DNA of 62,969 nt from Bacilli bacterium (GCA_016935515.1 JAFGQT010000082.1:1-62969), one strand, 5' to 3'. Counted from the stretch's first letter, positions 5,974 to 52,722 are shown. Notes: generated by a model not told the origin, from the letters alone. Made by a program: numbers and translations.

Positions 5974-5987
5974 AAGAAGGAATATAG

Positions 5988-33093: not shown

Positions 33094-33323
33094 TTTGTGT
33101 GTTTCCTCCTTTTTGTGCCAAATATACGGGTTTAGCAACCAGCTTATTGGTGATTGCTGGATTATTCACAGAAACTTCACAATACAGCATTCTTGAAGGC
33201 TCGATCTTCTCAATTGAGCAAGCCTTTAGAAACATAAAGATCATGATATGGCCTCAACCTGAAAAACTTTGTTTAAACTTGTGCTTTTGAACAGTGCAAA
33301 ACCGTGGATGATTTGGTAAAATT

Positions 33324-34949
33324 ATGTTGTCAACCGAGGAGATGATTGATTTGGTGTTAAGCCGTGGCAAGTATTTTCCCGCAAAATTTTACGTTTTAGA
33401 ATCTATTCATGAATTCGAGTCAGTCAAGGATTTTTTGCCTGCACCAATAACTGACGATGAGGAGTTATTGGAACTTTACTGGTTTACTTTGAGACTTGCG
33501 TTCAAGAATGCCAAAGCACCGGAAAATCATGAAGAAATGGTCGCTAATTACCAAGATTCTGCTTTTAACCAGAACCTGTTTCTGTGGGACAGCGCATTTA
33601 TTTCTCGCTTCTTGAGCCCATTTTCCGAGTTTTTGCCGGGGATCAAAACACTTGATAACTTCTATCATCGTCAACTCGATGACGGTTTGATTCCCAGAGA
33701 GTTTGACAAGGCGACGGGCAAGGATTATTCGAAATGGGTCAATCCAGAGAATCTACCTTTGAATTCTTTCTTTCATAATCATTATGTTTATCGTGGGATC
33801 AACGATGTCACCGCTTCAACAAATAGGTATTTTCCCGATCTTGGTCGTACGCCAAAAGTCAAGCCCTTCTACACTTTGGACAATCTAAACCACCCGATAT
33901 TGTCGTATGCAGAGTACAATCATTATTTACATACCAAAGATAAAGCAAGATTAGCGGTTGTACATGAACCGCTGCATCGGTATTATCTTGCTTTGCGGGA
34001 CCAGATCCGTCATCAAAGTGGACTGTATGTCACAGATTGGGCCAGCATGGACAACTCGCCAAGAAACAAAAGGCTTTTCATTGGCGTTGATATTTCTTCG
34101 GAAATGGTCTTATTTGCACGCATGATGGCTCTGATTTATCGAGAACTTGGCCTTTCAGAGAATGTCAAACGAATAGAGTTTTATGACAATGAAGTGGTGG
34201 CTCTATCGAGTTTGATCAACGATTTTCTTTGGGACGATGAAACAGGGTTTTACTATGACTTGGATCAAGACTTGAAACAGATAAGAATCAAAACGATTGC
34301 AGGGTTCTGGCCACTGATTGCCAAAATCTGTGACACTGAACAAGCGAAGAAGTTAGCTTCTAAGATCCAGGATCGGTCGTGTTTCAATAGAATTCATCCG
34401 ATCCCTAGTCTATCCGCAGATGAAGAAGGATTCAAATCTGATGGCGGATATTGGTCAGGGGGAGTGTGGGCTCCGACGAACCTGATGGTCACCGACGGAC
34501 TGGAGATTTATGGTATGCATAAGTTGGCCAAAGAAATCGCTCTAAAGCACCTGAGTGCAGTAATGAAAGTATACTTGAAAACTGGAACTATATGGGAAAG
34601 CTATCCAGCAGATGCTTTGACCTCTGGAGATTCAGATAAGGGTGACTATGTGGGTTGGACAGGAATCGGTCCTATCTTATACTTTCTGCAGTATCATATA
34701 GGGCTTAAAGCGGATGCAACAAACAACAAATTGATTTGGGAGATAGATTCTGACAGAGAGCATTCAGGTTGTCGAAATTATGCTTTCTTGGGGAAGAAGG
34801 CTGGCTTAAAAGCCTGTAAATGTGTTGATGGATATCAAATAGAAGTAATTACGACCGATACTTTCGATCTGGAAATATCTATTAATGAGAGACACAAGTT
34901 GATACAGATTTCTGGAAATGCCAAGTTTCATATACCTGTCGAATCATGA
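33324..34949 (+). CDS. GH63-like (MGH1-like / trehalase-fold) glycoside hydrolase, cytoplasmic
   Basis: LFLWDSAFISRF, DWASMDNSPR and GGYWSGGVWAPTN fit the (alpha/alpha)6 mannosylglycerate/glucosylglycerate hydrolase-like family. Confidence 0.6.
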   Translation: MLSTEEMIDLVLSRGKYFPAKFYVLESIHEFESVKDFLPAPITDDEELLELYWFTLRLAFKNAKAPENHEEMVANYQDSAFNQNLFLWDSAFISRFLSPFSEFLPGIKTLDNFYHRQLDDGLIPREFDKATGKDYSKWVNPENLPLNSFFHNHYVYRGINDVTASTNRYFPDLGRTPKVKPFYTLDNLNHPILSYAEYNHYLHTKDKARLAVVHEPLHRYYLALRDQIRHQSGLYVTDWASMDNSPRNKRLFIGVDISSEMVLFARMMALIYRELGLSENVKRIEFYDNEVVALSSLINDFLWDDETGFYYDLDQDLKQIRIKTIAGFWPLIAKICDTEQAKKLASKIQDRSCFNRIHPIPSLSADEEGFKSDGGYWSGGVWAPTNLMVTDGLEIYGMHKLAKEIALKHLSAVMKVYLKTGTIWESYPADALTSGDSDKGDYVGWTGIGPILYFLQYHIGLKADATNNKLIWEIDSDREHSGCRNYAFLGKKAGLKACKCVDGYQIEVITTDTFDLEISINERHKLIQISGNAKFHIPVES

Positions 34950-35554
34950 AACCACGAAAATTGATCATTTATGGCGACTCGATTTCCGGGATAACTCATG
35001 GAAATGGGGGTTATCAAAGAATATTGGAGTCTGAGAGTGTTTTTTCCAGCATCAGTAACTACGCGATCGGAGCCAGTGGGCTGAGTCCAGAGACACCTAA
35101 CAATCTTCACAAGCTAATTTTTCGCTATAATCGTTACGACAGAGACGCTACTGCAATCTTGATTTGGCACGGGACCAACGATTGGTTCTACGGAGTGTCA
35201 GTAGATGAGTTCAAGCGCAATTTTCAGGACATATACAGTAGATTGAAACAAGAGTGTCCAATTGCGAACTTTCTATTTCTGACGCCAATATTTCGTTTTG
35301 AAACCGCTCGAGGAAATCATGAACCTGGAGATGGATTTGAAACACAAAATCTTTCCGGAAATACGCTGTTGGATTTTGAAAATGCAGTCATCGATCTGGC
35401 TGAGACTTACAAGGTGGATTTCGTAAACATGCGATTGGAAACTAAATTCACCATTGCCAACGTGAATGATTTTTACGAAGACAAAGTTCATCCGAACGAG
35501 AGAGGTTATGAGGTCATAAGCAAAATTATCATCGAGAAATTAAGGAAAATATAA
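34946..35554 (+). CDS. SGNH/GDSL-family hydrolase (esterase)
   Basis: The block I motif LIIYGDSISG, a GTND-like block and a C-terminal D..HP block are present. ATGA overlap with the upstream gene. Confidence 0.75.
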   Translation: MKPRKLIIYGDSISGITHGNGGYQRILESESVFSSISNYAIGASGLSPETPNNLHKLIFRYNRYDRDATAILIWHGTNDWFYGVSVDEFKRNFQDIYSRLKQECPIANFLFLTPIFRFETARGNHEPGDGFETQNLSGNTLLDFENAVIDLAETYKVDFVNMRLETKFTIANVNDFYEDKVHPNERGYEVISKIIIEKLRKI

Positions 35555-35564
35555 TAATGAATCG

Positions 35565-35589
35565 ACCAGACAGTAGTCTGGTTTTTTTG
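35565..35589 (+). terminator. rho-independent terminator
   Basis: accagac-agta-gtctggt is followed by T7. Confidence 0.8.
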
Positions 35590-35667
35590 TGCTATATCAC
35601 AAAATGTGGTGGATTAATCAGCAGTATATATGGTATTATATAGACGAATAATCAAAGGGGGAGTAAT

Positions 35668-36735
35668 ATGTTTCAGGCCGGGTTGGATTATGATCTTGCG
35701 CAGAAGATCGTTGATAACATTATGATGATTGTTCCGTATAACATCAACATCATGGACAAATCAGGCACAATAATTGCCAGCGGAAATTCCATGCGAATCA
35801 ACAAGGCGCATTTTGGTGCGATTAAAGCTTTAGAGCTGAACGAAGCCTATTTTATATACGAGGACACAGAACTAGAAAAAAAGGGAATCAATGTTCCTTT
35901 CCGCTACAAGGGCGAGATAGTCGGAGTCATAGGCGTTTCCGGTGAACCAAAAGAAGTTGAGCCGATTGCCAATATCGTCAGAGTTACAGCAGAATTGATG
36001 ATTGATAAGCAAATCTACGATAATCGCGCTTATGCCAGAGACACAAAAACACGTGATTTTTTCAACGAGTTGACAATTAATCCGGAGTTTCTGGAAGGTC
36101 AAGTAGCCAAATCGCTGGCGAGCGAGTTGGGCATCGATTTGTCTCTAGAGCGAACAGCGGTGATTCTCAAAGTCAAGGAAAGCAGTAGTGAAGTGACAGA
36201 TTTTATTAGGAAGATGTTGCATAAGGGTGAGTACGTCATTCGTGAAAGCATGCTTAATGCGGTCGTCTTTTTTCTTAGTGGCGAAAACCTGATCGAACGA
36301 ATCAAGGTTCTTCTTACGAGCAATGATTTGATCCAAGCTGCTTATGTAGGGTATGATTCAACAAACATGTATCAGTCATTTGAATCAGCAAATTCAGCTC
36401 TCCAGGTTGCCGACAAACTCAATATAAACGAATCGATAATGAAAATCAGCGACTATGTCCTTGAGGATGTTGCACTGCAAATACAATCAAACGACCATAT
36501 CAAAGCTATTGGTGAAGCTTTGGAAAACTGCAATAAGGGTGACGCTTTGAAAGAGACTCTAGTTGCATATGTCCGGACAGGGTTCGATGTATCGCGGACT
36601 TGTGAGGAGCTTTTTATCCACAAGAACACCTTCTATTATCGGATGCAGAGGTTGAAAGCTGTAACGGGATTTGAGACGGGGAACTTGAAAGACCTAATCA
36701 CTTTGTATATGTTTTTGGTCAATAGTTCATTATAA
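35668..36735 (+). CDS. CdaR/SdaR-family sugar-diacid regulator (Diacid_rec + PucR-type HTH)
   Basis: The N-terminal AQKIVDNIMMIVPYNINIMDKSGTIIASG...AHFGA is a diacid recognition domain. The C-terminal CEELFIHKNTFYYRMQRLK is a PucR HTH. Confidence 0.8.
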   Translation: MFQAGLDYDLAQKIVDNIMMIVPYNINIMDKSGTIIASGNSMRINKAHFGAIKALELNEAYFIYEDTELEKKGINVPFRYKGEIVGVIGVSGEPKEVEPIANIVRVTAELMIDKQIYDNRAYARDTKTRDFFNELTINPEFLEGQVAKSLASELGIDLSLERTAVILKVKESSSEVTDFIRKMLHKGEYVIRESMLNAVVFFLSGENLIERIKVLLTSNDLIQAAYVGYDSTNMYQSFESANSALQVADKLNINESIMKISDYVLEDVALQIQSNDHIKAIGEALENCNKGDALKETLVAYVRTGFDVSRTCEELFIHKNTFYYRMQRLKAVTGFETGNLKDLITLYMFLVNSSL

Positions 36736-36885
36736 ATGGTAAAAAATAACAGGTATTTGCCTTAATATGTGCTTTTGCACAAAACAACGCTTTCATTTTT
36801 GGTTTTGTTCACATTGTTTTCCCTCTTAGGGATTGTTATACTAAAAATGGCGTTTTATACAACATAAAACTAAGGAGGAAACAAA

Positions 36886-38229
36886 ATGATCAAGAAGTTA
36901 CTTGGCTTGTTGCTGGTAGCAGCCTTTGGCATAGTCCTATTCGGCTGTCAAGAAGATACAACTACCGCAGCAACCACAACTCAGAGCACAGCAACAACGA
37001 CTACAACTACGGAAGCCAGAGAACTCAACCTGGTAATCTCCGGACTTCAACAGGCAAGCGAGAGAGTGTTCTTCACAACTTTCGTGAAATTGTTTGAAGC
37101 CAGATACGACGCAACAGTTAACGTCACCTATACTACACAGGCTGATCTGCAAACCAAGATTGAAACTGAACAGACTTCAGAAAATGTCGTAAGTGATGTT
37201 GTCATGGTTGATACAGCGAACATGACTCCTTACATTAATGGCGGATGGATGGAAGACATCACTGATGTGTTAGCTTCACTTGATGACCGGACGATCACTG
37301 ATATGTTTGATTCATCGACGAAGAGCGACGGAAAAGCATACTTTGTTCCAATCTCATTTGACATCTACATCACAATCTTTAACGTTGATGCTCTCCCCTA
37401 CATTCCTGACACAGTGGAAGTAACCAAGGATGAGTCAGAAAACATCGTTTCAGTTGATGCTATCACTTGGGAAGAATTCGCTGAATGGGCAATCAACATC
37501 AAGACAGAGACGGGATCTGCTAAATCTGGATTCCCAATGTCAACTGTTGGTTCACAACTTATGTACCCGATGGGCGGTTTACAGTTGGCCTTTGGATCCA
37601 CTACGTATCCGATTCTCAATGATGCTGGCGCTGTAGCTGCGTGGAACCTTATCGCTGACATGGCTGCCGCTGGAGCAATCTTGCCAGAAGCTGTGCTATC
37701 AGAAACGAATCAACCAACAGCATTGCTTGAATCAGAAGATCTGTGGCTCAGCTTTGGGCACATGGGCCCAATCGGCACAGCTTACTCAGCTGCACCTGCG
37801 AACTACGTTCTTGGACCGGCTCCAACTGCTGAAGACACTGGCAAAGCTGGATCTACAGCTGGCGCATGGACTTTTGGAATCGTCAAAGGCGCACAGAATC
37901 AATCGGTCGCTGAAGATTGGCTCGAGTTCATTACTGAACCAGAAGTTAATTACCTGTATTGCTCAGGACTTGGTGGCGTCATTTCTCCAGTAATGGAAGT
38001 TGTTGATCAACTTGGAACATCTGATACTGACAAGATCATGGCTGCTGGACTTGCTGTTCTTGAATCTGGTGCAGAAGTAACCGGACTACCAACATATCTG
38101 TATACTTCATGGGGTGCAGTAAAGGAAATCTATACTGATTTGTACACAGATCTCTTGACAGGTAACGAATTGACTCAAGCTCAAGCGGATGCGTACCAAG
38201 TTCAATTGGAAGCATTGCTCGTAGACTAA
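36886..38229 (+). CDS. ABC transporter solute-binding lipoprotein (CUT1 carbohydrate type)
   Basis: RBS aaggagg lies upstream. The lipobox is LFGC, followed by a Thr-rich linker (TTTAATTTQSTATTTTTTE). The length is 447 aa. Confidence 0.8.
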   Translation: MIKKLLGLLLVAAFGIVLFGCQEDTTTAATTTQSTATTTTTTEARELNLVISGLQQASERVFFTTFVKLFEARYDATVNVTYTTQADLQTKIETEQTSENVVSDVVMVDTANMTPYINGGWMEDITDVLASLDDRTITDMFDSSTKSDGKAYFVPISFDIYITIFNVDALPYIPDTVEVTKDESENIVSVDAITWEEFAEWAINIKTETGSAKSGFPMSTVGSQLMYPMGGLQLAFGSTTYPILNDAGAVAAWNLIADMAAAGAILPEAVLSETNQPTALLESEDLWLSFGHMGPIGTAYSAAPANYVLGPAPTAEDTGKAGSTAGAWTFGIVKGAQNQSVAEDWLEFITEPEVNYLYCSGLGGVISPVMEVVDQLGTSDTDKIMAAGLAVLESGAEVTGLPTYLYTSWGAVKEIYTDLYTDLLTGNELTQAQADAYQVQLEALLVD

Positions 38230-38242
38230 GTTATCTATTTGG

Positions 38243-38279
38243 AGCAGGGTCGAAGATAAACTTCGGCCCTGCTTTTCTT
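38243..38279 (+). terminator. hairpin with U-tract between the SBP and permease genes (partial terminator/attenuator)
   Basis: agcagggtcgaag pairs with cttcggccctgct (one G-U) and is followed by tttct. Confidence 0.6.
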
Positions 38280-38296
38280 AAAACAGGAGGGAATAT

Positions 38297-39235
38297 ATGG
38301 AAGGAAAAGCGCTAGCTAATAACAACGGTAGCAACTACAAGGAAATGCTCCGACGAGTATTCAACAAGAAAACAGCGCCCTTTTGGCTTCTGGCACCGAC
38401 GTTCATCTACTATCTGGTGTTCTGGTTTTCTCCAATCTTTATCAGCATCAAGGAAGTATTCACAACATTAGACGGAAAATTCACAGTGCTAGGCAACTTC
38501 TTGTTCTTGTTCGAGCAAGAAACATTCCTGCCAGCACTGCTAAATACAGCATTCTTTGCCGTAGCTTCAGTAATGCTTCAATTTGTCATCGCTTTGGTAT
38601 TGGCAATCTTGTTGAATCGCAAATTCAAAGGACAGAAACTAATCCTCTTTCTTGTAATGATTCCCATGGCGATTACTCCTACCGCGGTAGCAATCGTCTG
38701 GAAAACTGGTTTGATTAGCAGTGGTTGGATCAACTCAATACTCCAATCCTTTAGTGTGCTTGAGGAGAGAATCCCATTTCTTGGCTTGAGAGGTATCGAA
38801 GCCGTCATCATGATTATCTTGATTGATACTTGGACGGTAATGCCTTCAGTTCTAATCATCTTGATTGCCGGGCTTGGAAACATCAATGAAGAGACCAAAG
38901 AAGCAGCATATATATTTGGAGCCAGCAAATGGCGTATAATAAAGGATATAACAATACCATTATTGAAACCATCCATTATCACTGCGGTTATTTTGCGTAT
39001 GATTGCGGCAGTTCAAGTGTGGGCAGTTGTTGTCATGGTAATGGGATTCACTAATGTACCTTTCTTAGTTGAAAGGATTGCCTATTACGTAGGACCTGTT
39101 TCCAGCCTCCCATATGCCGATAAACTAGCGTATACTTACTCATTCCTGACCGCAGTTATCGTATTCATCGCGACAATCGTCTATTTCAAGATCAGCAAGA
39201 AGGGAACAGCTCTTGATCGGAGGACGCAGAAATGA
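38297..39235 (+). CDS. carbohydrate ABC transporter permease
   Basis: It is a polytopic protein with EAA loop EAAYIFGASKWRIIKDITIP. Confidence 0.85.
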   Translation: MEGKALANNNGSNYKEMLRRVFNKKTAPFWLLAPTFIYYLVFWFSPIFISIKEVFTTLDGKFTVLGNFLFLFEQETFLPALLNTAFFAVASVMLQFVIALVLAILLNRKFKGQKLILFLVMIPMAITPTAVAIVWKTGLISSGWINSILQSFSVLEERIPFLGLRGIEAVIMIILIDTWTVMPSVLIILIAGLGNINEETKEAAYIFGASKWRIIKDITIPLLKPSIITAVILRMIAAVQVWAVVVMVMGFTNVPFLVERIAYYVGPVSSLPYADKLAYTYSFLTAVIVFIATIVYFKISKKGTALDRRTQK

Positions 39236-40278
39236 ATAAACTGAACGGAATTCAAAAAACTCTGATTGCTTTAGTACTGGCAACCGTTGTCATAGCGGTA
39301 ATCGTCCCCTTAATGTTTTTCTTCACCAATGCCTTCTCAAATGGAAGAGAAGTATATGATTATCCTAAGACGCCAATTTTATCGTTTACGGTCAAGGTTC
39401 AGGTGTCATACAATGAAGATACTGGGATGTATATAGTCAAATACTACGATCGCAATGGTGAGTTACAGAATGCAGTAAACACAAGTTTTGGAGAGATTCT
39501 CTCAGGCTATTTCGAGCAGTATCTGTCAGTATACCGAACTCCTGAGGAACTGCTTGAGCAGTTTGAGATAACCAAGACAGAAGGCCCTCAAGAGTTTACA
39601 TACGGTAAAAACATGTGGCATAACTTCAAGACATTCTTCTTGATTACCAGCAAAGCTGAGGAAGCATTAGTCAATAGTATCATCGTCGTGATTTTTACAA
39701 TCATCATATCCCTTACTCTAGGAAGTATGGCTGGGTATGCTTTTGCTAGGTTCAGATTCAAGGGTAAGGACCAAATCAACGTGTTCATGCTGATAGTCAG
39801 GATGTTTCCGATGGTCGGCATCAGCATACCGCTGGCGGTGATTTTGATCAGGTTTAACCTCTTCGATACGATGATAGGTCTGGCAATCCTCTATTCACTA
39901 CCAAATATAGCATTGACTTCATGGATAACTAGCTCGATATTTGTCGGTATCAATCGGGAACTCGAGGAAGCATCACTTGTATTTGGAGCTAATGGTTTCC
40001 AAACCTTCATCAAGATTACATTGCCGTTGGCATTGCCGGCTCTAGCCGCAAGTTCAATGTACGCTTTCCTAACCGCTTGGAATGATACAATCTCTGCTTT
40101 GATTCTGACTAACGATCATCCGACATTGGCTCTGGCAGTTTATCAGGCAATCGGCGACAATACGACAAATCTTCAATACGCTGCAGCTGGAAGCATAATC
40201 TTGATTATCCCCGCGCTCATCTTCACATTCGTGATTCGGAAATACGTGAATCAAATGTGGGGCGGAGTGTCTGTCTAA
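39232..40278 (+). CDS. carbohydrate ABC transporter permease with a large extracytoplasmic loop
   Basis: ATGA overlap with the upstream gene. The EAA loop is EEASLVFGANGFQTFIKITLP. A soluble insert of about 100 aa follows TM1. Confidence 0.85.
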   Translation: MNKLNGIQKTLIALVLATVVIAVIVPLMFFFTNAFSNGREVYDYPKTPILSFTVKVQVSYNEDTGMYIVKYYDRNGELQNAVNTSFGEILSGYFEQYLSVYRTPEELLEQFEITKTEGPQEFTYGKNMWHNFKTFFLITSKAEEALVNSIIVVIFTIIISLTLGSMAGYAFARFRFKGKDQINVFMLIVRMFPMVGISIPLAVILIRFNLFDTMIGLAILYSLPNIALTSWITSSIFVGINRELEEASLVFGANGFQTFIKITLPLALPALAASSMYAFLTAWNDTISALILTNDHPTLALAVYQAIGDNTTNLQYAAAGSIILIIPALIFTFVIRKYVNQMWGGVSV

Positions 40279-40288
40279 GGAGGACATA

Positions 40289-41395
40289 ATGGCATTTCTA
40301 GAACTCGTTGATCTTGACAAAAGGTATACACAAAAAGGCAACTTGATTGTCAAACATATGAATCTGTCCATTCACAAAGGGGAATTTCTCGTTTTTCTTG
40401 GGCCATCTGGGTGTGGAAAAACAACGACGATCCGGATGATCTCAGGACTTGAGGAGATATCTGGAGGCGACATACTAATTAACGGAAAATCAGTTGTATC
40501 GCTACCGCCAAAAGATCGTGGGGTATCGATGATATTCCAAAGTTACGCCGTTTGGCCACATATGACAGTAAGGGAAAATATTGCCTATCCATTGAGACTG
40601 CAGAAGGTTTCGAAGAAAGATATTGTCACAAGAGTGGAAAAAGCTGCCGCAGCTGCCAACATCATGGAATTGCTCGATCGATATCCAACGCAGTTGTCCG
40701 GTGGTCAACGCCAAAGGGTTGCAGTGGCCCGAGCTATCGTCGTCGAGCCTCAGATATTTCTGATGGATGAGCCGCTCTCGAATCTTGACGCGATGTTGCG
40801 TGTTTCGATGCGTTCTGAACTGAAAAACATTCATGAGTCTTTGGGGGCAACCTCGATTTTCGTTACTCATGACCAATCAGAAGCGATGAGTTTGGCCGAT
40901 CGTATTGTCATCATGAAGGACGGCCTGATCGAACAGATTGGGACGCCTAAAGATGTATATTTTGACTGCGAAAGCATTTTTGTCGCTTCGTTCATCGGAG
41001 TACCTCCGACCAATTTTTTCCATGTTTCTGTTCTCAAGGACGATGCAGGCCTGCTGCTTAAGAGTCAAGATGTAAGTTATCGCGTTGATGCCTTGGAAGA
41101 GAAGATGCTCTCCCCATATGTGGGCAAAGAAGTAGTCATGGGTGTCAGGCCGGAAAACCTTGAGATTTCTGACACTTTTGACGACAACACTTTCCTCACT
41201 ACACATGCAGATTTCATTGAACCACAAGGTTCTCATATTATCGTCATCAGCAAGCTTGAATCATCTGTTATCAAGATTTCATCCTCGAAATTAGAACTGC
41301 AGGCCAAGAGCCTGATACATGTCAGCGTAAAAGACAGAAAAGCAATGTTTTTTGACAAAGACACAGAAAAGAGAATCCGTCTGCAGGAGGAATAA
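40289..41395 (+). CDS. ABC transporter ATP-binding protein, MsmK/MalK type
   Basis: GPSGCGKTT, LSGGQRQR and FLMDEPLS motifs are present. Confidence 0.9.
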   Translation: MAFLELVDLDKRYTQKGNLIVKHMNLSIHKGEFLVFLGPSGCGKTTTIRMISGLEEISGGDILINGKSVVSLPPKDRGVSMIFQSYAVWPHMTVRENIAYPLRLQKVSKKDIVTRVEKAAAAANIMELLDRYPTQLSGGQRQRVAVARAIVVEPQIFLMDEPLSNLDAMLRVSMRSELKNIHESLGATSIFVTHDQSEAMSLADRIVIMKDGLIEQIGTPKDVYFDCESIFVASFIGVPPTNFFHVSVLKDDAGLLLKSQDVSYRVDALEEKMLSPYVGKEVVMGVRPENLEISDTFDDNTFLTTHADFIEPQGSHIIVISKLESSVIKISSSKLELQAKSLIHVSVKDRKAMFFDKDTEKRIRLQEE

Positions 41396-43057
41396 ATGGC
41401 AATCATCGATAGACTTAAAATCTTATACCCTAATGAATACCGAAGTGTAGCAAATAACCTCAAACGACTGATAGCTGACTGGCAACCCAAAATAAGAGCG
41501 CGCTATAGAGATATATCCGAAAAAGATGTCTGTCTGATAACCTATGGTGATGCAATCTATTCTGACGACGAGAAACCTTTGGCAACGCTAACGGAGTTTA
41601 TGAAAGACCATTTGTCGGGATTGATAAATGTTGTTCACATCCTTCCAATGTATCCATATACCTCTGACGATGGATTTTCTGTGGTTGATTTTCGAAAGAT
41701 TGATCCGGAGCTTGGTGATTGGACAAATATCAAGCAACTCAATGAAGAATTCGATTTGATGTTTGATGCCGTCATCAATCACGTTTCCGTTAGCAGTGAA
41801 TATTTTCGTGGATTCATGAATTCAAGTTCAAAATACAAAGGCTTCTTTTTGGAAGTCGATCCTGCAGTTGACCTCTCAACGGTTGTCAGGCCAAGGACTT
41901 CAAGCTTGATTACTGAGTATGAAGGAAAATCGGGAAAGAAATATGTATGGACAACTTTCAGCGCTGATCAGGTCGATCTCAATTATCATGAGCCAAGAGT
42001 TTTGCTGGAAGTTCTTGATGTTTTGTTGTTCTATGTTTATCATGGAGCTAGATTCATTAGATTTGACGCGGTAGGCTTCATTTGGAAGAAGCTTGGTACT
42101 ACTTGCATGCATCTTAATGAAACACATGAGATTGTGAAGTTGATGCGCGAGGTAATAGATTCAATCAGCTCCGGAGTTAAGATTATCACCGAGACTAACG
42201 TTAAACACCATGAAAACATATCATATTTTGGTAACGGCAGCGACGAGGCTTCACTAGTATACCAATTTCCGCTGCCCCCACTAGTATTGCATGCCTATTT
42301 GCGCCAAGATGCAAGCAGGCTCTTAAGTTGGTTGGAGCAGCTTCCAGAAACTTCGGAAACGACGACGTTTTTCAATTTTCTGGCTTCGCACGATGGAATC
42401 GGTCTGAGACCACTTGAAGGTCTGTTGGCAGACTCGGAAATCAAATTTACAGTTGACACAGTTGTGAGTCGCGGTGCCAGAATCAACTACCGGTCGCTTG
42501 CCAACGGCGAAAAGATACCTTATGAATGTTGCATAACTTACGTTGATGCTTTGTCAGAGCGCGATGCAACGGACTCAATTAGAGCGGCGAGACTATTAGG
42601 AGCTCATCTAATCCTGTTGTCGCTCCAAGGATTGCCTGCAGTGTACTATCATAGTCTTTTAGGTTCGCGAAATGACTATTTAGGAGCTGACGTAAGCGGG
42701 GTGAACAGACGCATCAACCGTGAAAAACTAGAATACAAAAAACTAGTCAAAGAATTGAATCTGATTGACGATTTGCGAGACTTGGTTTTCTCCGGAATGA
42801 AGAAAATGATTCAGACCCGTACTGGAAATCACCTTTTTCACCCCTCAATCAAGCAAAGGCCCTTGTTCAAAGAAAAAAGTATCTTTTGTCTTGAAAGATA
42901 TGATGCAAACGATTCGGTTTATGCTTGTGTAAACTTGTCAAATCAGCCTGTTGAGATCGATCTTGAATCCAGAACGCGCTCATTGTTGACAGGAGAAATC
43001 ATGGAAGAAAGATTCATCCTCGAACCATTTGGATACGGATGGTATCAGAAGCACTAG
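41396..43057 (+). CDS. GH13 subfamily-18 (sucrose phosphorylase family) glycoside phosphorylase; glucosylglycerate phosphorylase is plausible from context
   Basis: FDAVINHVS, RFDAVGFIWK, ITETNV and FLASHDGIGL conserved regions are present. The gene starts 1 nt after the ATPase stop and is followed by glycerate kinase. Confidence 0.7.
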   Translation: MAIIDRLKILYPNEYRSVANNLKRLIADWQPKIRARYRDISEKDVCLITYGDAIYSDDEKPLATLTEFMKDHLSGLINVVHILPMYPYTSDDGFSVVDFRKIDPELGDWTNIKQLNEEFDLMFDAVINHVSVSSEYFRGFMNSSSKYKGFFLEVDPAVDLSTVVRPRTSSLITEYEGKSGKKYVWTTFSADQVDLNYHEPRVLLEVLDVLLFYVYHGARFIRFDAVGFIWKKLGTTCMHLNETHEIVKLMREVIDSISSGVKIITETNVKHHENISYFGNGSDEASLVYQFPLPPLVLHAYLRQDASRLLSWLEQLPETSETTTFFNFLASHDGIGLRPLEGLLADSEIKFTVDTVVSRGARINYRSLANGEKIPYECCITYVDALSERDATDSIRAARLLGAHLILLSLQGLPAVYYHSLLGSRNDYLGADVSGVNRRINREKLEYKKLVKELNLIDDLRDLVFSGMKKMIQTRTGNHLFHPSIKQRPLFKEKSIFCLERYDANDSVYACVNLSNQPVEIDLESRTRSLLTGEIMEERFILEPFGYGWYQKH

Positions 43058-43073
43058 AATGGACAGTGATAAT

Positions 43074-44216
43074 ATGAAGTTTGTAATTGCGCCAGATTCA
43101 TTCAAGGAAAGCATGGATGCTTTAACGGCAGCCCAATCAATTCAAAGTGGTCTAAAAGACGTGTTTCCCGAGGCACACTTTTGTTTGTTTCCTATGGCTG
43201 ATGGTGGCGAAGGCACTTTGCAGGCAGTCAAATATTATGCCAAAGATGCTCAAAGCTTGGAAGCCACAGTCAGAGGGCCCTTGGGATCGCATGTCAGTGC
43301 CAGTCTGATTTGGATTCCTTCCAAAGCAGAAGTGTTCATCGAAATGGCTGAAGCAGCTGGCATAATGTTACTTGAAAAAGAACAAAGGAATCCGCTATAC
43401 ACTTCGACATATGGCGTTGGTGAACTGTTTGAATTTGCCTTGTCCAAACATCCCAAACGCATTGTGATTGCACTTGGCGGAAGCGTTACTAATGATGGCG
43501 GAATGGGATTTCTCCAAGCTCTTGGGGTGGTTTTCAACGATCAGCTCGGACAGGAATTGCCTGCTGGGGGAAGGTATCTTGGAGAAGTTGATGCCATCAA
43601 CAACTCGAAGCGATTGGGAAAATTCAAGAATGTTCAGATCATTGTTTTGACAGACGTCAAGAACAGACTTTTGGGGACAAATGGAGCTACATTGACCTAT
43701 GGTCCGCAAAAAGGAGCTGACACCATCATGCTTGATGTGCTGGAAGAAGGAATGAAAAAATACGCAACTGTGATGGAAAATCATTTCGGCAAGATTGTCC
43801 GAAATGCCATAGGCTCTGGAGCTGCAGGCGGTCTAGGATTTGCACTTCAATTTTTGCCGAATGTCGACCTTGTATCTGGGTTCGACTATGTTGCAGAATT
43901 GTCGAACATTGAAGAAATGATTGCGGATTGCGATGTTGTTTTTATTGGCGAAGGTTCTCTGGACAGACAATCCTTGCAAGGAAAAGTACCGATCGGTATT
44001 GCAAATCTTGCCAAAAAATATCATAAACCCGTCGTCGCTCTGGTAGGGACCTTGAAATGTAATTTGGATGAACTGTCTCCATACGGCATTGACATGGTGT
44101 ACCCAATCAATGAAGCAAATGAAAATTTGCCCAACTTATTGAAAGCTGGTCCAAAAAATTTGGCTGCTACAGCGAAAAAAGTTGGTCTTTCTCTTAAGGA
44201 AAGGGGTCTTCTATGA
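43074..44216 (+). CDS. glxK: glycerate kinase (GlxK/GarK class)
   Basis: MKFVIAPDSFKESM...MADGGEGT...GGSVTNDGGMGFLQALG motifs are present. An alternative start lies at 43059; the track start is a TTG at 43029. Confidence 0.85.
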   Translation: MKFVIAPDSFKESMDALTAAQSIQSGLKDVFPEAHFCLFPMADGGEGTLQAVKYYAKDAQSLEATVRGPLGSHVSASLIWIPSKAEVFIEMAEAAGIMLLEKEQRNPLYTSTYGVGELFEFALSKHPKRIVIALGGSVTNDGGMGFLQALGVVFNDQLGQELPAGGRYLGEVDAINNSKRLGKFKNVQIIVLTDVKNRLLGTNGATLTYGPQKGADTIMLDVLEEGMKKYATVMENHFGKIVRNAIGSGAAGGLGFALQFLPNVDLVSGFDYVAELSNIEEMIADCDVVFIGEGSLDRQSLQGKVPIGIANLAKKYHKPVVALVGTLKCNLDELSPYGIDMVYPINEANENLPNLLKAGPKNLAATAKKVGLSLKERGLL

Positions 44217-45547
44217 AGATTGCGTTGATCCATTTTCGTGTAGGTGAAACTGATGGTGTCTCGTTGGAGATGGACAAGTGGCGCAAGGTTCTTGCGAATT
44301 TGGGGCATGAACCTTTTTTCATCGCTGGTAAGCAACACGGTGTAGACACATTCACAATTCCCGAACTTGCATTTGATAATCGCGAGGATCTTGAACTGAA
44401 TGAGGCTTGCTTTGTAAGACTAGGGAGATTCACAGAAGAATCCCTCAAATCAAGATTGGAAGCAGTAGCAAATAGTATCGAGAAGCAATTGACTGAACTG
44501 ATCAAAGAAAAAAGTCTCGATATGCTTATTGTAAATAACATGTTTTCTCTGGCAAGAAGTTTGCCTGTAGCGATTGGCATCCAAAATTCGATTATAAAGA
44601 CCGGTGTCAAGGCTGTTGGTCATCATCATGATTTTTACTGGGAACGTGAGCGATACTCGTCACCAACCTGCGCTTTTGTTCGCCAGTGCCTGGAAGATTT
44701 TTTTCCTCCCTTTTCGAATATGTTGCATGTGGTGATCAACAGCCTGGCACAGACCGATCTAAAATTTAGAAAGGGCTTGACATCGACAATCGTACCAAAT
44801 GTCTTCGATTTTGATCAGGATCCTTGGACTCAGGATGACTACAACATTGATTTGCGGCAAGCATATGGCCTTGATGAAAATGCAGTTATTTTTCTTCAGG
44901 CAACCAGAGTTGTCAATCGCAAAGGCATTGAATTGGCAGTGCAGACCTTGGCAGAAATGAACAAGAGTAAATCGCGCTATTTTGGGAAAAAGATGTATAA
45001 CGGCGTAGTGTTTGATGATCAAAAACATTTTGTGCTGCTTTGTGTCGGTCTTCACGAGGGTACAGACGGATATGAAAGCAAACTTGAAGGTCTTGCGGCC
45101 AAGCTTGATGTCGAGATAATTCTCGATCCAACAAAAATCGCCCATACCAGGAGCAATTCAGTGCCAAAAAGATATTCACTCTGGGATGCTTACGTTATTG
45201 CGGATGTAGTTTCTTACCCAAGTCTTTATGAGGGATTTGGGAACCAGTTTCTTGAGGCGGTTTTCGCTAAGAAGCCAATATTGCTATATGAATATTCTGT
45301 TTTTGAGGCTGACATAAAAGCAAAAGGGTTCGCCTATGCCTCGCTCGGTGCTAAGCATTCGCTTCGAGCCAATGGGCTGGCGCAGGTTACTGAGGAGTCA
45401 ATTGTGTCTGCGTCAAATGTTCTGGAAGGATATTTATTCGATCCGATTTTCAGGAACGAAGCGGTAGAAAATAATTTTGAACTAGGTAAGAAGCATTATT
45501 CGATGGAAGCATTAAAAAATCTGCTTAAGGAGATAGTCAATAACTGA
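44213..45547 (+). CDS. GT4-family (GT-B) glycosyltransferase-fold protein
   Basis: ATGA overlap with glxK. The C-terminus has the E-x7-E motif SYPSLYEGFGNQFLEA. The length is 444 aa. Confidence 0.65.
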   Translation: MKIALIHFRVGETDGVSLEMDKWRKVLANLGHEPFFIAGKQHGVDTFTIPELAFDNREDLELNEACFVRLGRFTEESLKSRLEAVANSIEKQLTELIKEKSLDMLIVNNMFSLARSLPVAIGIQNSIIKTGVKAVGHHHDFYWERERYSSPTCAFVRQCLEDFFPPFSNMLHVVINSLAQTDLKFRKGLTSTIVPNVFDFDQDPWTQDDYNIDLRQAYGLDENAVIFLQATRVVNRKGIELAVQTLAEMNKSKSRYFGKKMYNGVVFDDQKHFVLLCVGLHEGTDGYESKLEGLAAKLDVEIILDPTKIAHTRSNSVPKRYSLWDAYVIADVVSYPSLYEGFGNQFLEAVFAKKPILLYEYSVFEADIKAKGFAYASLGAKHSLRANGLAQVTEESIVSASNVLEGYLFDPIFRNEAVENNFELGKKHYSMEALKNLLKEIVNN

Positions 45548-45554
45548 TACGGTC

Positions 45555-46865
45555 ATGAAGATAACATTTTTAGGTGCAGGTAGCACCGTATTCGCCAAGA
45601 ACGTTCTTGGCGATTGCATCATCAATCCACAATTGAAGAATATGACGATTTCATTGTATGATATCGATCATGAACGACTTGATGATTCATTCAGAATGCT
45701 GACCAACCTGAATCGAACGATGGGTGGGAATGCCACGATCGTCAAGGAAGTAAATCGGAAGAAAGCACTTCAGGATGCAAATTACATCGTTAATGCAATT
45801 CAGGTCGGAGGCTATGATCCGGCAACGATTCTGGATTTCGAGATACCTAAAAAGTATGGGTTTCGCCAGACTATCGGTGACACGATGAGCATTGGCGGCA
45901 TTTTTCGTGCTTTGCGAACAATACCGGTTTTAGAAGAGTTTGCTTCCGATATCGAAGAGGTGTGCCCAGACGCTCTATTCATCAACTATGTTAATCCGAT
46001 GTCCATTTTGACAGGGTACATGCAAAGATACACCAAAGTCAATACCGTAGGACTCTGTCATAGCGTTCAGATCTGTGTTCCTAGGCTGCTGAAGATGTAC
46101 GGACTAGAAGCATATACGGACAAATGCCGTTATCAGATTGCCGGAATCAACCATATGGCATGGCTACTGTCCTTGGAAGGCACAGACGGATTTTTGTTGT
46201 ACGACGAGATCAAGCGGCGAAATTTGGAAAACGACGGTAGGTATAACGATCGTAAAGATTTGGTCAGACTCGAGATAATGCGTCGTTTTGGTTACTACGT
46301 GACTGAAAGTTCAGAACATAATGCGGAATACATGCCATACTTCATCAAGCAAAATTATCCGGAATTCATTGAAAAATACAACATTCCCCTTGACGAGTAC
46401 CCTCGTAGGTGTGTGAACCAAATCAATGAATGGAAGCACACGCGAGAACAACTTACAAATAATCCTGAACTTAGGCACGAGAAATCTTATGAATATGCAT
46501 CATCAATAATCGAGGCTATGGAAACCGACAAACCATTCAAGATGAACGGGAATGTCCTCAACAAAGGATTAATAACAAATCTACCGGAAGACGCCTGTGT
46601 CGAAGTTCTTTGTTTGGTAGACAGAGCCGGGATTCATCCGACATATGTGGGACAGCTACCTACAGCCCTTGCGGCCTTGAATATGACGAATGTGAATGTG
46701 CAATTGATGACTATAGAAGCAGCTAGAACAAGAAAAAGGTCCGATGTGTATAAAGCTGCCTATCTTGATCCAAGGCTTTCTGCGGAACTTTCAATGGACG
46801 AGATCAAGAGCATGTGTGATGAGCTGTTTGAAGCTGAAAAAGAATGGCTAGGAAAGTATAATTAG
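45555..46865 (+). CDS. GH4-family NAD+/Mn2+-dependent alpha-glucosidase/alpha-galactosidase
   Basis: MKITFLGAGSTVF (Rossmann fold) and VGLCHSV (catalytic Cys-His region) motifs are present. The length is 436 aa. Confidence 0.8.
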   Translation: MKITFLGAGSTVFAKNVLGDCIINPQLKNMTISLYDIDHERLDDSFRMLTNLNRTMGGNATIVKEVNRKKALQDANYIVNAIQVGGYDPATILDFEIPKKYGFRQTIGDTMSIGGIFRALRTIPVLEEFASDIEEVCPDALFINYVNPMSILTGYMQRYTKVNTVGLCHSVQICVPRLLKMYGLEAYTDKCRYQIAGINHMAWLLSLEGTDGFLLYDEIKRRNLENDGRYNDRKDLVRLEIMRRFGYYVTESSEHNAEYMPYFIKQNYPEFIEKYNIPLDEYPRRCVNQINEWKHTREQLTNNPELRHEKSYEYASSIIEAMETDKPFKMNGNVLNKGLITNLPEDACVEVLCLVDRAGIHPTYVGQLPTALAALNMTNVNVQLMTIEAARTRKRSDVYKAAYLDPRLSAELSMDEIKSMCDELFEAEKEWLGKYN

Positions 46866-46872
46866 GAGGCAA

Positions 46873-48743: not shown

Positions 48744-48745
48744 AG

Positions 48746-49777: not shown

Positions 49778-49778
49778 C

Positions 49779-51992: not shown

Positions 51993-52026
51993 AAAGCCCA
52001 AGGAGAGTAAGTTCCTCGGGCTTTTT
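51993..52026 (+). terminator. rho-independent terminator closing the glycoside operon
   Basis: aaagcccaagga pairs with tcctcgggcttt (one mismatch) and is followed by TTT. Confidence 0.7.
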
Positions 52027-52532: not shown

Positions 52533-52722
52533 AGAATCATATTCTACATATAGTACTGGCTACCCATTTTTAGAAAAACTTGATTGTCTGTTGACCAAGC
52601 CGCAAATAAACTGTAAAATGAAACTTAATATACTATTAGGGTAATCATTACTAGAGATAACAACACAATGAATCATTTTTTCGTTGAGATGACTTGTTTT
52701 ACGGGTAGAGGAGGAATATCTT

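What the first reader, a model, noticed from the sequence alone, without database searches (positions are those of the whole stretch)
33324..45547. A candidate catabolic locus for glycerate-containing compatible solutes (glucosylglycerate / mannosylglucosylglycerate)
The locus combines five elements.
- A GH63/MGH1-like hydrolase, the family of mannosylglycerate and glucosylglycerate hydrolases.
- A CdaR-type regulator, a family that controls glycerate and sugar-diacid genes in E. coli.
- A CUT1 ABC importer.
- A GH13_18 phosphorylase, the subfamily that contains sucrose, glucosylglycerol and glucosylglycerate phosphorylases.
- A glycerate kinase ATGA-coupled to a GT4 protein.

Phosphorolysis of glucosylglycerate would give glucose-1-phosphate and glycerate. 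These feed directly into PgcA and into GlxK-GpmI-Eno, all encoded in this same window. Scavenging of other organisms' osmolytes would be an unusual nutritional niche.
Basis: partly seen in the sequence, partly recalled or inferred. Interest (0 to 1): 0.6.

Follow-up and report, generated by a model that had tools for sequence, protein, structure and literature searches.

The report
Glucosylglycerate-type osmolyte uptake and breakdown locus
An uncultured wall-less marine-type bacterium (Izemoplasmatales) carries a 19-kb gene set that most likely imports and breaks down the stress-protectant sugars glucosylglycerate and mannosylglucosylglycerate made by other microbes. It is a richer relative of the still-unexplained E. 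coli ycj cluster, and it contains a 'synthase-type' enzyme that here seems to work in degradation.

Summary
All five elements are present at the stated coordinates, and the glxK/GT4 ATGA overlap is real. The locus is larger than stated: one 12-gene operon runs from the binding-protein gene (36886) to a GH65 phosphorylase (51980) and ends at a terminator.

The GH13_18 enzyme is 43% identical to E. coli YcjM, a characterised glucosylglycerate phosphorylase, and carries both published signature motifs. The downstream genes match YcjQ, R, S and T at 55, 45, 36 and 34% identity. The locus is therefore an extended ycj-type cluster with added glycerate kinase, an MggS-family GT4, GH4, a GH63/MGH1-like hydrolase and CdaR.

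The GT4 family occurs in about 480 species genomes. In 42 of 51 long loci it sits beside a YcjM-type phosphorylase. Its other recurrent neighbours are importers of three kinds, glycerate kinase and mannose-processing enzymes, and never solute-synthesis genes. About half of the carriers checked lack any recognisable GDP-mannose pyrophosphorylase.

Best reading: import and mainly phosphorolytic breakdown of glucosylglycerate-type solutes, with the GT4 removing the mannose cap. This is a new variant of a known kind, and the GT4's direction and co-substrate remain untested.

The parts
33280..33293 (+). Operator-like site TGTGCTTTTGAACA (one mismatch to TGTGC-N4-GCACA), upstream of the GH63 gene
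33324..34949 (+). GH63/MGH1-like (alpha/alpha)6 hydrolase, 541 aa, cytoplasmic
   Evidence: PF22422 at 90 bits. Best solved relative is Thermus TTHA0978 (2z07/4wva), E 9e-11. No signal peptide.
34946..35554 (+). GDSL/SGNH esterase, 202 aa, overlap-coupled to the GH63 gene
   Evidence: PF13472 at 55 bits. Conserved next to cdaR in L005, L006 and L011.
35564..35583 (+). Intrinsic terminator closing the GH63-GDSL unit
   Evidence: 8-bp stem followed by a T-run
35588..35601 (+). Operator-like site TGTGCTATATCACA (one mismatch), upstream of cdaR
35668..36735 (+). CdaR-family regulator (sugar-diacid recognition domain plus PucR-type HTH)
   Evidence: PF05651 at 134 bits and PF13556 at 55 bits. NF008550 at 135 bits is below its 612 cutoff.
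36768..36781 (+). Perfect palindrome TGTGCTTTTGCACA upstream of the binding-protein gene, the only perfect copy in the 1.4-Mb genome
36886..38229 (+). Solute-binding lipoprotein (signal peptide ending ...VLFGC, then a Thr-rich linker)
   Evidence: PF13416 and PF01547. N-terminus read. Co-conserved with the GT4 in 38 of 81 loci.
38297..39235 (+). ABC permease 1
   Evidence: PF00528
39232..40278 (+). ABC permease 2 (MalG-like, 348 aa, with an N-terminal extension)
   Evidence: PF00528 and NF008231
40289..41395 (+). MalK/UgpC-type ABC ATPase, 50% identical to E. coli YcjV
41396..43057 (+). GH13_18 glucosylglycerate phosphorylase (YcjM type)
   Evidence: 43% identity to YcjM over 555 aligned positions. 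TETN at residues 265-268 and the loop-A Tyr-Glu are present. Sucrose and glucosylglycerol phosphorylases in the PDB are far weaker matches.
43074..44216 (+). Glycerate kinase (GlxK/GarK class). The ORF opens at 43029, but the likely start is the ATG at 43074.
   Evidence: TIGR00045 at 415 bits, above cutoff. Sequence read.
44213..45547 (+). MggS-family GT4 (GT-B fold), overlapping glxK by ATGA
   Evidence: NF041101 at 417 bits over the full length, cutoff 640. 44% identical to a Thermotoga homologue. AF2 model has pLDDT 90.6, with nearest folds BshA, MshA, SPS, PimB' and TreT.
45555..46865 (+). GH4 NAD-dependent glycosidase of the MelA subfamily
   Evidence: NF011657 at 605 bits, above its 486 cutoff. 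PF02056 and PF11975. Best PDB match is LplD, E 7e-35.
46873..47940 (+). YcjQ-like Zn-dependent dehydrogenase (E. coli YcjQ is D-guloside 3-dehydrogenase)
   Evidence: 55% identity over 349 aa
47937..48743 (+). YcjR-like TIM-barrel epimerase (E. coli YcjR is 3-dehydro-D-guloside 4-epimerase)
   Evidence: 45% identity
48740..49777 (+). YcjS-like Gfo/Idh/MocA oxidoreductase (E. coli YcjS is D-glucoside 3-dehydrogenase)
   Evidence: 36% identity
49779..51980 (+). GH65 phosphorylase of the kojibiose-phosphorylase type
   Evidence: 34% identity to YcjT. 3WIQ at E 1e-83, with GPDE and H-x-SSLS kept. At the fingerprint positions it has D64, E392, A394, P402 and H416, where CsKP reads E, E, A, P and W.
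51993..52024 (+). Terminator hairpin plus U-run that ends the operon
   Evidence: -16 kcal/mol, z-score -2.5

Best explanation
This is a CdaR-controlled regulon of 15 genes (33324-51980) for uptake and cytoplasmic, mainly phosphorolytic, breakdown of alpha-1,2-linked glycosyl-glycerate solutes. The expected substrates are glucosylglycerate (GG) and its mannose-capped form mannosylglucosylglycerate (MGG).

Proposed steps:
(1) The surface lipoprotein and CUT1 ABC importer bring the intact glycoside in. This is inferred.
(2) The MggS-family GT4 removes the alpha-1,2-mannose cap of MGG, transferring it to phosphate or to GDP, and leaves GG. This is inferred. Only the synthetic direction has been shown, in vitro, for a Thermotoga homologue.
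(3) The YcjM-type GH13_18 enzyme splits GG with phosphate into alpha-glucose-1-phosphate and D-glycerate. This is inferred from 43% identity to a characterised enzyme plus both signature motifs.
(4) Glycerate kinase makes phosphoglycerate. A PGM/PMM-type mutase, GpmI and enolase, all in the same window, feed both halves into glycolysis.
(5) The GH63/MGH1-like hydrolase and GDSL esterase share the operator motif. They give a hydrolytic or de-acylating side route. This is speculative.
(6) GH4, the YcjQRS-like trio and the GH65 phosphorylase handle related alpha-1,2-glucosides and C3/C4 epimers, as in the E. coli ycj cluster. Beta-glucose-1-phosphate from GH65 would go to a beta-phosphoglucomutase encoded elsewhere in the genome.
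For: - GGaP identity and motifs. In the loci next to the GT4, 49 of 56 GH13 partners carry (T/S)ETN and 51 of 56 carry the loop-A Tyr-Glu.
- Homology to the ycj cluster for M, Q, R, S, T and V.
- The whole 15-gene order is conserved in L005 and L006. Compact cores of GT4, GlxK, GGaP, ABC importer and CdaR occur in other Tenericutes MAGs and in cultured strain zrk7.
- About 480 species genomes carry the GT4 family. In 51 loci of at least 16 kb, GGaP is adjacent in 42 and GlxK in 22.
- Unbiased clustering of neighbours finds importers of three kinds (ABC, Na+/solute symporter, TonB-type receptor) and LacI or CdaR regulators. It also finds GlxK, 2-hydroxyacid dehydrogenase and GntP permease.
- The same clustering finds PMI, PMM, GH130, GH92, GH38, GH125-like and MGH1-like enzymes. 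It finds no recurrent GpgS, ManC or phosphatase.
- Only the binding protein is secreted.
- The motif TGTGC-N4-GCACA lies upstream of all three transcription units. About 0.007 such sites are expected in that much intergenic DNA.
- The genome encodes a beta-PGM and a PMI but no GpgS-type synthase.
- No GDP-mannose pyrophosphorylase is found in G000, G001 or the 98%-complete G039, nor in 18 of 37 GT4 carriers overall.
Against: - No enzyme, binding protein or regulator from this locus has been assayed.
- The GT4 scores below the NCBIfam equivalog cutoff (417 against 640 bits). The only activity reported for the family is synthesis of MGG from GDP-mannose and GG (PMC3736172, citing Fernandes 2010).
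- Cleaving an ordinary glycosidic bond by reverse Leloir transfer is thermodynamically uphill.
- In other phyla the GT4-GGaP pair sits with GpgS and phosphatases, a make-and-recycle context (earlier notes; the R. baltica operon, PMC3736172).
- The genome is a 78%-complete MAG, so absences are weak evidence.
- The GH63-like protein is only distantly related to characterised MG and GG hydrolases. It scores 35 bits on the GG-hydrolase equivalog, whose cutoff is 550.
- The physiological substrate of the homologous E. coli cluster is still unknown (PMC11543891).
- The operator motif was found post hoc and is not conserved in L005.
Confidence: 0.68

Rival explanations
1. Salvage rather than breakdown. 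The importer takes up GG, and the GT4 works as a true synthase that caps it with mannose from GDP-mannose. The resulting MGG serves as the cell's own osmoprotectant. GGaP and GlxK dispose of any surplus.
For: The only reported activity of the family is GDP-mannose plus GG giving MGG (PMC3736172). The E-x7-E and R-x4-K donor-site motifs are invariant in the family. The fold is that of ordinary Leloir GT4 enzymes.
Against: No GDP-mannose pyrophosphorylase is detectable in G000, G001 or the 98%-complete G039, nor in 18 of 37 carriers. The GT4 is co-transcribed with the enzymes that destroy GG. Recurrent neighbours (PMI, PMM, GH130, GH92, GH38, GH125-like) point to release of mannose, not its attachment.
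Confidence: 0.13
2. Make-and-recycle of an endogenous solute. GGaP runs in reverse, making GG from glucose-1-phosphate and glycerate, and the GT4 caps it. This is what was proposed for the Rhodopirellula mggS-mggB-spasE operon.
For: GGaP is reversible (PMC7178133, PMC11009771). The GT4-SPase pairing was read as biosynthetic in R. baltica (PMC3736172). Chloroflexota loci combine the pair with GpgS and phosphatases (earlier notes).
Against: An ATP-dependent glycerate kinase and a binding-protein-dependent importer sit in the same operon. No GpgS-type gene is present and there is no donor pathway for GDP-mannose. The locus is patchy, occurring in 3 of 41 genomes of the order, as accessory catabolic islands typically are. 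The R. baltica MggS homologue showed no synthase activity (PMC3736172).
Confidence: 0.1
3. A general alpha-glucoside (kojibiose or sucrose type) locus in which glycerate glycosides play no part. On this reading the glycerate kinase and CdaR are neighbours by accident.
For: The GH65 resembles kojibiose phosphorylase. The GH13_18 family also contains sucrose phosphorylases.
Against: The GH13_18 enzyme has the GGaP motifs and lacks the sucrose-phosphorylase pattern. GlxK is adjacent to GGaP and GT4 in 22 of 51 long loci from many phyla. The CdaR family senses sugar acids.
Confidence: 0.04

Closest known systems
E. coli K-12 ycjMNOPQRSTUV-ompG cluster, regulated by YcjW
   Same: Both have a YcjM-type glucosylglycerate phosphorylase, a CUT1 ABC importer with a YcjV-like ATPase, the YcjQ/R/S trio and a GH65 kojibiose-type phosphorylase, with Q-R-S-T in the same relative order. 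Identities are 43, 50, 55, 45, 36 and 34%. In both, the natural substrate has not been demonstrated (PMC11543891).
   Different: The window adds glycerate kinase, an MggS-family GT4, GH4, a GH63/MGH1-like hydrolase and a GDSL esterase. It uses CdaR instead of the LacI-type YcjW. Its binding protein is unrelated to YcjN (no BLASTP hit). Its beta-phosphoglucomutase lies elsewhere in the genome. There is no porin, since the organism has no outer membrane.
Glucosylglycerate phosphorylase, GGaP, EC 2.4.1.352 (Allomeiothermus silvanus, Spirochaeta thermophila, E. coli YcjM)
   Same: It belongs to GH13_18 and has the (T/S)ETN motif and the loop-A Glu. Its gene lies next to a glycerate kinase gene, an association already noted for the family (PMC7178133).
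   Different: The window's enzyme is untested. Here it is embedded in an importer operon with a GT4, not next to GpgS or GpgP.
Mannosylglucosylglycerate synthase MggS (Thermotoga maritima enzyme assayed; Petrotoga mobilis pathway; the R. baltica mggS-mggB-spasE operon)
   Same: The window's GT4 belongs to the same GT4 family: full-length match to NF041101, and 44% identity to a Thermotoga homologue. Pairing with a GH13_18 gene is also seen in R. baltica (PMC3736172).
   Different: It scores below the equivalog cutoff. The genomic company here is catabolic, and the lineage shows no donor pathway for GDP-mannose. I propose the direction is cleavage, not synthesis.
TreT of Thermococcus litoralis, encoded in the trehalose/maltose ABC transporter cluster; also sucrose synthase and fungal trehalose phosphorylase. 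All are GT4 enzymes. This comparison is from my own knowledge and was not tested here.
   Same: These are GT4-fold enzymes that work, or can work, in the degradative direction on an imported or stored glycoside. TreT appears among the fold matches. The window's binding protein has its only PDB sequence match in the T. litoralis trehalose/maltose-binding protein.
   Different: They are different subfamilies, with only 13-16% identity at fold level. Trehalose and sucrose have high-energy glycosidic bonds, whereas the Man-alpha-1,2-Glc bond of MGG is an ordinary one.
E. coli mngR-mngA-mngB mannosylglycerate utilisation system (PTS uptake plus a GH38 hydrolase; from my own knowledge)
   Same: It is a precedent for a heterotroph feeding on a glycerate-based osmolyte made by other organisms. 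GH38 genes also occur in 5 of the GT4 loci.
   Different: It uses PTS uptake and hydrolysis of a phosphorylated intermediate. It has no ABC importer and no phosphorylases.
GH63 mannosylglycerate/glucosylglycerate hydrolases (Thermus TTHA0978/MgH; mycobacterial GgH)
   Same: The window's enzyme has the same Pfam domain (PF22422), and its closest solved structure is TTHA0978. A second MGH1-like subfamily lies next to the GT4 in 10 loci.
   Different: The relationship is very distant (E 9e-11 over about 110 residues). The protein is 541 aa against 420 aa for TTHA0978, and it fails the GG-hydrolase equivalog model (35 bits against a 550 cutoff).

Membership tests
Glucosylglycerate phosphorylase (GH13_18 GGaP clade) | [quoted passage not shown] | tested here: met
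   TETN at residues 265-268, aligned with the TETN of YcjM. Criterion taken from PMC7178133.
Glucosylglycerate phosphorylase (GH13_18 GGaP clade) | Glu in loop A, where most other GH13_18 clades have Gln | tested here: met
   P-Y-E aligns with P-Y-E of YcjM. The Tyr-Glu is present in 51 of 56 GT4-linked GH13 partners.
Glucosylglycerate phosphorylase (GH13_18 GGaP clade) | Closer to a characterised GGaP than to sucrose, sucrose-6F-phosphate or glucosylglycerol phosphorylases | tested here: met
   450 bits and 43% identity to YcjM. The best sucrose or glucosylglycerol phosphorylase in the PDB scores at most 176 bits. The sucrose phosphorylase equivalog TIGR03852 gives 203 bits, below its 334 cutoff.
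Glucosylglycerate phosphorylase (GH13_18 GGaP clade) | Phosphorolysis of 2-O-alpha-glucosylglycerate with no activity on sucrose | not testable with these tools
   Requires an enzyme assay.
Mannosylglucosylglycerate synthase (NCBIfam NF041101 equivalog) | Score above the curated cutoff of 640 bits | tested here: not met
   417 bits, although the match covers residues 1-442 of the protein and positions 1-431 of the model. T. maritima scores above the cutoff in the control set.
Mannosylglucosylglycerate synthase (NCBIfam NF041101 equivalog) | GT-B/GT4 fold with E-x7-E and R-x4-K donor-site motifs | tested here: met
   AF2 model at pLDDT 90.6 with GT4 fold matches. E340, E348, R232 and K237 are invariant in 20 homologues.
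Mannosylglucosylglycerate synthase (NCBIfam NF041101 equivalog) | Availability of the donor GDP-mannose in the organism | tested here: not met
   The only NTP-transferase genes found are GlgC-type, GlgD and GlmU in G000 and G039, plus RmlA in G001. No ManC-type or Rv-type enzyme was found. Caveat: G000 is 78% complete, though G039 is 98% complete.
E. coli ycj-type cluster | Co-linear YcjM, ABC importer, YcjQ, YcjR, YcjS and YcjT homologues | tested here: met
   BLASTP identities of 34-55%, with the genes in the same relative order.
E. coli ycj-type cluster | YcjN-type binding protein, YcjU in the cluster, LacI-type YcjW, and OmpG | tested here: not met
   No YcjN or YcjW homologue is present in the locus. 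The YcjU homologue lies on another contig, C46.
Glycerate kinase (GlxK/GarK class, TIGR00045) | Score above the curated cutoff | tested here: met
   414.9 bits against a cutoff of 168.
GH63 MG/GG hydrolase | MGH1-like catalytic domain | tested here: met
   PF22422 at 90 bits against a cutoff of 27, covering model positions 7-340 of 356.
GH63 MG/GG hydrolase | Equivalog-level match to glucosylglycerate hydrolase; conserved glycerate-binding residues | tested here: not met
   NF047898 gives 35 bits against a cutoff of 550. The residue-level check was not possible at this level of divergence.
GH65 kojibiose phosphorylase | Catalytic acid and phosphate-site motifs, plus the six-position specificity fingerprint (the KP example given in PMC8537180 reads EEAPWS) | tested here: inconclusive
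   GPDE and H-x-SSLS are kept. Positions 64, 392, 394, 402 and 416 read D, E, A, P and H, where CsKP in the alignment reads E, E, A, P and W. Position 585 falls in a poorly aligned stretch.

The most novel reading that the evidence does not exclude
The MggS-family GT4 enzymes are not physiological synthases. They are retaining alpha-mannoside phosphorylases that convert MGG plus phosphate into alpha-mannose-1-phosphate plus GG. That would make them the first bacterial phosphorylases with a GT4 fold. It would also define a widespread MGG/GG catabolic pathway, present in about 480 species genomes and fully phosphorolytic in its core: the GT4, then GGaP, then glycerate kinase. The same reading would point to glycerate glycosides as the missing natural substrates of the E. 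coli ycj cluster.
Probability: 0.25. Interest if true: 0.8.

Novelty: new variant of a known kind. Interest (0 to 1): 0.55.

Why it matters
Glucosylglycerate is a major solute of marine cyanobacteria and many other microbes, yet how it is consumed in nature is barely known. The only proposed sink is GGaP, whose physiological role has not been confirmed (PMC7178133).

This locus and its roughly 480 relatives give a concrete, testable pathway that includes uptake, regulation and a route for the mannose-capped form. It also offers a handle on two open points. One is what the E. coli ycj cluster is for, since the ligand of its binding protein was still unknown in 2024 (PMC11543891). The other is why an 'MGG synthase' is found in organisms that neither make MGG nor, in about half the carriers checked, have any recognisable way to make GDP-mannose.

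If the GT4 proves to be a phosphorylase, it would be a useful biocatalyst for making MGG-type protectants from cheap sugar phosphates.

Tried and rejected
- **Sequence search of the PDB with the GT4:** no match at E <= 0.01.
- **Fold search with the GT4 model:** it confirms a generic GT4 fold but cannot tell a phosphate-dependent enzyme from an NDP-dependent one, or synthesis from cleavage.
- **Promoter and terminator consensus scans:** counts are at chance level (46 found against 45.9 expected; 14 against 15.5). I used only the clear hairpins at 35564 and 51993.
- **GH65 fingerprint position 585:** it could not be mapped reliably.
- **Key primary papers:** Franceus 2017, Mukherjee 2018 and Fernandes 2010 are not held. 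What I say about them comes from reviews (PMC7178133, PMC11009771), from PMC3736172 and from RefSeq product names.
- **Sucrose phosphorylase reading of the GH13_18 enzyme:** rejected on motifs and identity.
- **Extracellular polysaccharide degradation:** rejected, because no enzyme in the locus has a signal peptide.
- **Recent transfer judged by composition:** rejected, because the locus GC of 0.41-0.44 matches the rest of the window. The patchy distribution still marks the locus as accessory.
- **NF010496 as the GpgS model:** I identified it as GpgS from memory, because the tool prints only 'PRK13915.1'.

Full report
**What is there.** All genes between 33324 and 51980 lie on the + strand. 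Family scans identify them in this order:
- a GH63/MGH1-like hydrolase
- a GDSL esterase
- a CdaR-type regulator
- a solute-binding protein, two permeases and a MalK/UgpC-type ATPase
- a GH13 phosphorylase
- a glycerate kinase
- a GT4 protein
- a GH4 glycosidase
- a Zn-dependent dehydrogenase
- a xylose-isomerase-like TIM barrel
- a Gfo/Idh/MocA oxidoreductase
- a GH65 enzyme

The true glxK start is probably the ATG at 43074, 16 nt after the phosphorylase stop.

From the binding-protein gene to GH65, the genes overlap or are separated by at most 68 nt. A -16 kcal/mol hairpin with a U-run follows GH65. GH63 and GDSL form a separate unit closed by a terminator at 35564.

**One regulon.** A 14-bp palindrome, TGTGC-N4-GCACA, lies upstream of the binding-protein gene. 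That copy is perfect and is the only perfect copy in the 1.4-Mb genome. One-mismatch copies lie upstream of GH63 and of cdaR. Genome-wide there are 23 sites with at most one mismatch, so about 0.007 would be expected in these roughly 450 nt. I read this as a shared operator, probably for CdaR. The motif was found post hoc and is not conserved in the closest related locus, L005.

**Organism.** The window is contig C82 of a 1.40-Mb, 78%-complete MAG. A genome of the same genus, G001, gives its GT4 hit on contig C46 at 5779-7107. Those are the same coordinates as locus L014, on contig CAYWOK010000046.1, titled 'uncultured Candidatus Izemoplasmatales bacterium'. This agrees with an earlier agent's note.

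The binding protein has a lipoprotein signal peptide (...VLFGC) and a Thr-rich linker. Every enzyme lacks a signal peptide. An intact small glycoside must therefore be imported and degraded inside the cell.

**The phosphorylase.** The GH13 protein is 43% identical over 555 aligned positions to E. coli YcjM, annotated and published as glucosylglycerate phosphorylase. Sucrose, sucrose-6F-phosphate and glucosylglycerol phosphorylases in the PDB match far less well. A review by the discoverers gives two sequence marks for GGaP: a (T/S)ETN motif on beta-strand 5, and Glu instead of Gln in loop A (PMC7178133). Both are present and align exactly with YcjM.

**A ycj-type cluster.** The downstream genes match E. 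coli proteins as follows:

| Window gene | E. coli match | E. coli function | Identity |
|---|---|---|---|
| 46873-47940 | YcjQ | D-guloside 3-dehydrogenase | 55% |
| 47937-48743 | YcjR | 3-dehydro-D-guloside 4-epimerase | 45% |
| 48740-49777 | YcjS | D-glucoside 3-dehydrogenase | 36% |
| 49779-51980 | YcjT | kojibiose phosphorylase | 34% |
| 40289-41395 | YcjV | ABC ATPase | 50% |

The GH65 keeps the catalytic GPDE motif and the H-x-SSLS phosphate site, and its best solved relative is kojibiose phosphorylase 3WIQ (E 1e-83). It differs at two of the five specificity positions I could map: Asp at 64 and His at 416, where CsKP has Glu and Trp. A YcjU-like beta-phosphoglucomutase lies on contig C46 beside two more GH65 genes.

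The locus is thus an extended relative of the E. coli ycj cluster. That cluster's natural substrate is still unknown: in 2024 its binding protein YcjN bound none of the sugars tried, including kojibiose (PMC11543891).

**The GT4.** It matches the NCBIfam model for mannosylglucosylglycerate synthase over its whole length at 417 bits, below the 640 cutoff. It is 44% identical to a Thermotoga homologue. T. maritima, source of the only assayed MggS, is the one control genome above the cutoff. No solved structure matches by sequence. An AlphaFold model (pLDDT 90.6) is a standard GT-B/GT4 fold, nearest to BshA, MshA, sucrose-phosphate synthase, PimB' and TreT.

**Comparative genomics of the GT4.** About 480 species genomes encode relatives. 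They include Izemoplasmatales, Clostridia, Atribacterota, Halanaerobiales, Bacillaceae, Flavobacteriaceae, Vibrio, Victivallales, Thermotogae, Spirochaetes and Alphaproteobacteria.
- **Adjacency in long loci.** In 51 loci of at least 16 kb, a YcjM-like GH13 gene is adjacent in 42, glycerate kinase in 22, and ABC importer parts in about half.
- **Type of GH13 partner.** Of 56 adjacent GH13 proteins, 49 have (T/S)ETN and 51 have the loop-A Tyr-Glu.
- **Unbiased clustering of all neighbours.** It adds LacI (48 loci), CdaR (13), GH130 (14), a second MGH1-like hydrolase subfamily (10), Na+/solute symporters (9), TonB-type receptors (8), PMI (8), GH38 (5), PGM/PMM directly after the GT4 in Vibrio-type loci (4), 2-hydroxyacid dehydrogenase (4), GntP permease (3), GH92 (3) and a GH125-like protein (2). 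No GpgS, ManC or phosphatase family recurs.
- **Gene maps.** Flavobacteriaceae have TonB-type receptor, GT4, MGH1-like, symporter, GGaP, GlxK. Bacillaceae have CdaR, GGaP, GT4, GlxK, ABC importer. Halanaerobiales add YcjQRS-like genes, GH4 and GH65.
- **Conservation of the window's arrangement.** The exact 15-gene order recurs in L005 and L006, whose GT4 is 58% identical. A compact core with PMI occurs in another Tenericutes MAG.

The company this GT4 keeps is uptake plus catabolism of something that contains glucose, glycerate and mannose.

**Direction and co-substrate of the GT4.** A synthase needs GDP-mannose. The own genome, G001 and the 98%-complete G039 all carry the GT4. Their NTP-transferase genes are only GlgC-type, GlgD and GlmU, plus RmlA in G001.

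Among 37 GT4-carrying genomes, 18 have no ManC-type enzyme. These include complete chromosomes and 4-6-Mb Bacillaceae isolates. None of the 18 has the actinobacterial type either: the best score is 157 bits against a cutoff of 440, which is the level of GlgC cross-matches. The R. baltica MggS homologue showed no synthase activity as a recombinant protein or in cell extracts (PMC3736172).

These points argue against a GDP-mannose-fed synthase. They mildly favour phosphate as the acceptor, which would suit fermenters that already use GGaP, GH65 and GH130 phosphorylases. This is inference, not demonstration.

**Rivals.** Biosynthesis or make-and-recycle is real in other lineages. Examples are the R. 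baltica operon with the MggB phosphatase, and Chloroflexota operons with GpgS noted by earlier agents. Here several points go against it:
- The operon contains an importer and an ATP-dependent glycerate kinase.
- No GpgS-type gene is found; PRK13915 gives only 27-43-bit cross-hits.
- The locus is patchy, present in 3 of 41 genomes of the order.

Salvage of imported GG into MGG remains possible, at about 0.13.

**Novelty.** Four things are already known: GGaP and its link to glycerate kinase, the ycj cluster, MggS, and the MggS-SPase pairing. My literature searches found no description of an importer-linked GT4-GGaP-GlxK catabolic module. They also found no description of its spread across many phyla or its steady association with mannose-processing genes, and none of the point that about half of its carriers lack recognisable GDP-mannose metabolism. 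The window's version is the richest seen, fusing this module with a ycj-type QRS/GH65 block, GH4 and a GH63/GDSL unit under one CdaR-type operator. I class it as a new variant of a known kind.

Noticed in passing
window 33280-33293, 35588-35601, 36768-36781: A TGTGC-N4-GCACA palindrome lies upstream of the three transcription units of the locus. It has only one perfect copy in the whole 1.4-Mb genome. It is a candidate CdaR operator, and no binding site is well defined for this regulator family.
   Followed up: partly
genome contig C46:5490-10442 (outside the window): A second sugar-phosphorylase cluster: two more GH65 genes directly upstream of a YcjU-like beta-phosphoglucomutase (41% identity).
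   Followed up: no
window 52190-52534: A small 114-aa cupin-like ORF (HKHPWPH...) with its own promoter-like site lies between the GH65 terminator and the PAS-GGDEF-HD-GYP gene. I cannot tell whether it belongs to the locus.
   Followed up: no
window 45555-49777: 3-keto-D-guloside and 3-keto-D-galactoside are the same compound. A MelA-type GH4, whose mechanism goes through C3 oxidation, next to the YcjQRS-like trio hints that the block may act on galacto- or gulo-configured alpha-glycosides. E. coli ycj has no GH4.
   Followed up: no
L014 (= G001, same genus) and L007, L012: A genome of the same genus carries a different, compact version of the module, with a GT4 only 50% identical. This suggests independent acquisitions of the module within Izemoplasmatales.
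   Followed up: partly
L013, L017 (Clostridia MAGs): These loci carry two GH13_18 genes each, one on either side of the importer-GT4-GH130 block. The phosphorylase may therefore have diverged into two specificities there.
   Followed up: no
L021, L013, L034: A 400-aa protein with no Pfam match, which looks GT-A-like by eye (starts ...VTVVIPTYW), recurs next to GH130 genes in GT4 loci. It may relate to the GT-A/GH130 fusion proteins noted by an earlier agent.
   Followed up: no
window 39232-40278 and orthologues: The MalG-like permease is about 50 residues longer at its N-terminus than usual (348 aa). The transport domain starts near residue 130-160. This length is conserved in GT4-linked loci (about 340-353 aa).
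   Followed up: no
L069, L082, L083 (Vibrio, Psychromonas): A conserved 526-aa protein with no Pfam family, together with a ROK-type regulator, accompanies the GT4 and ABC importer in Vibrionaceae loci.
   Followed up: no
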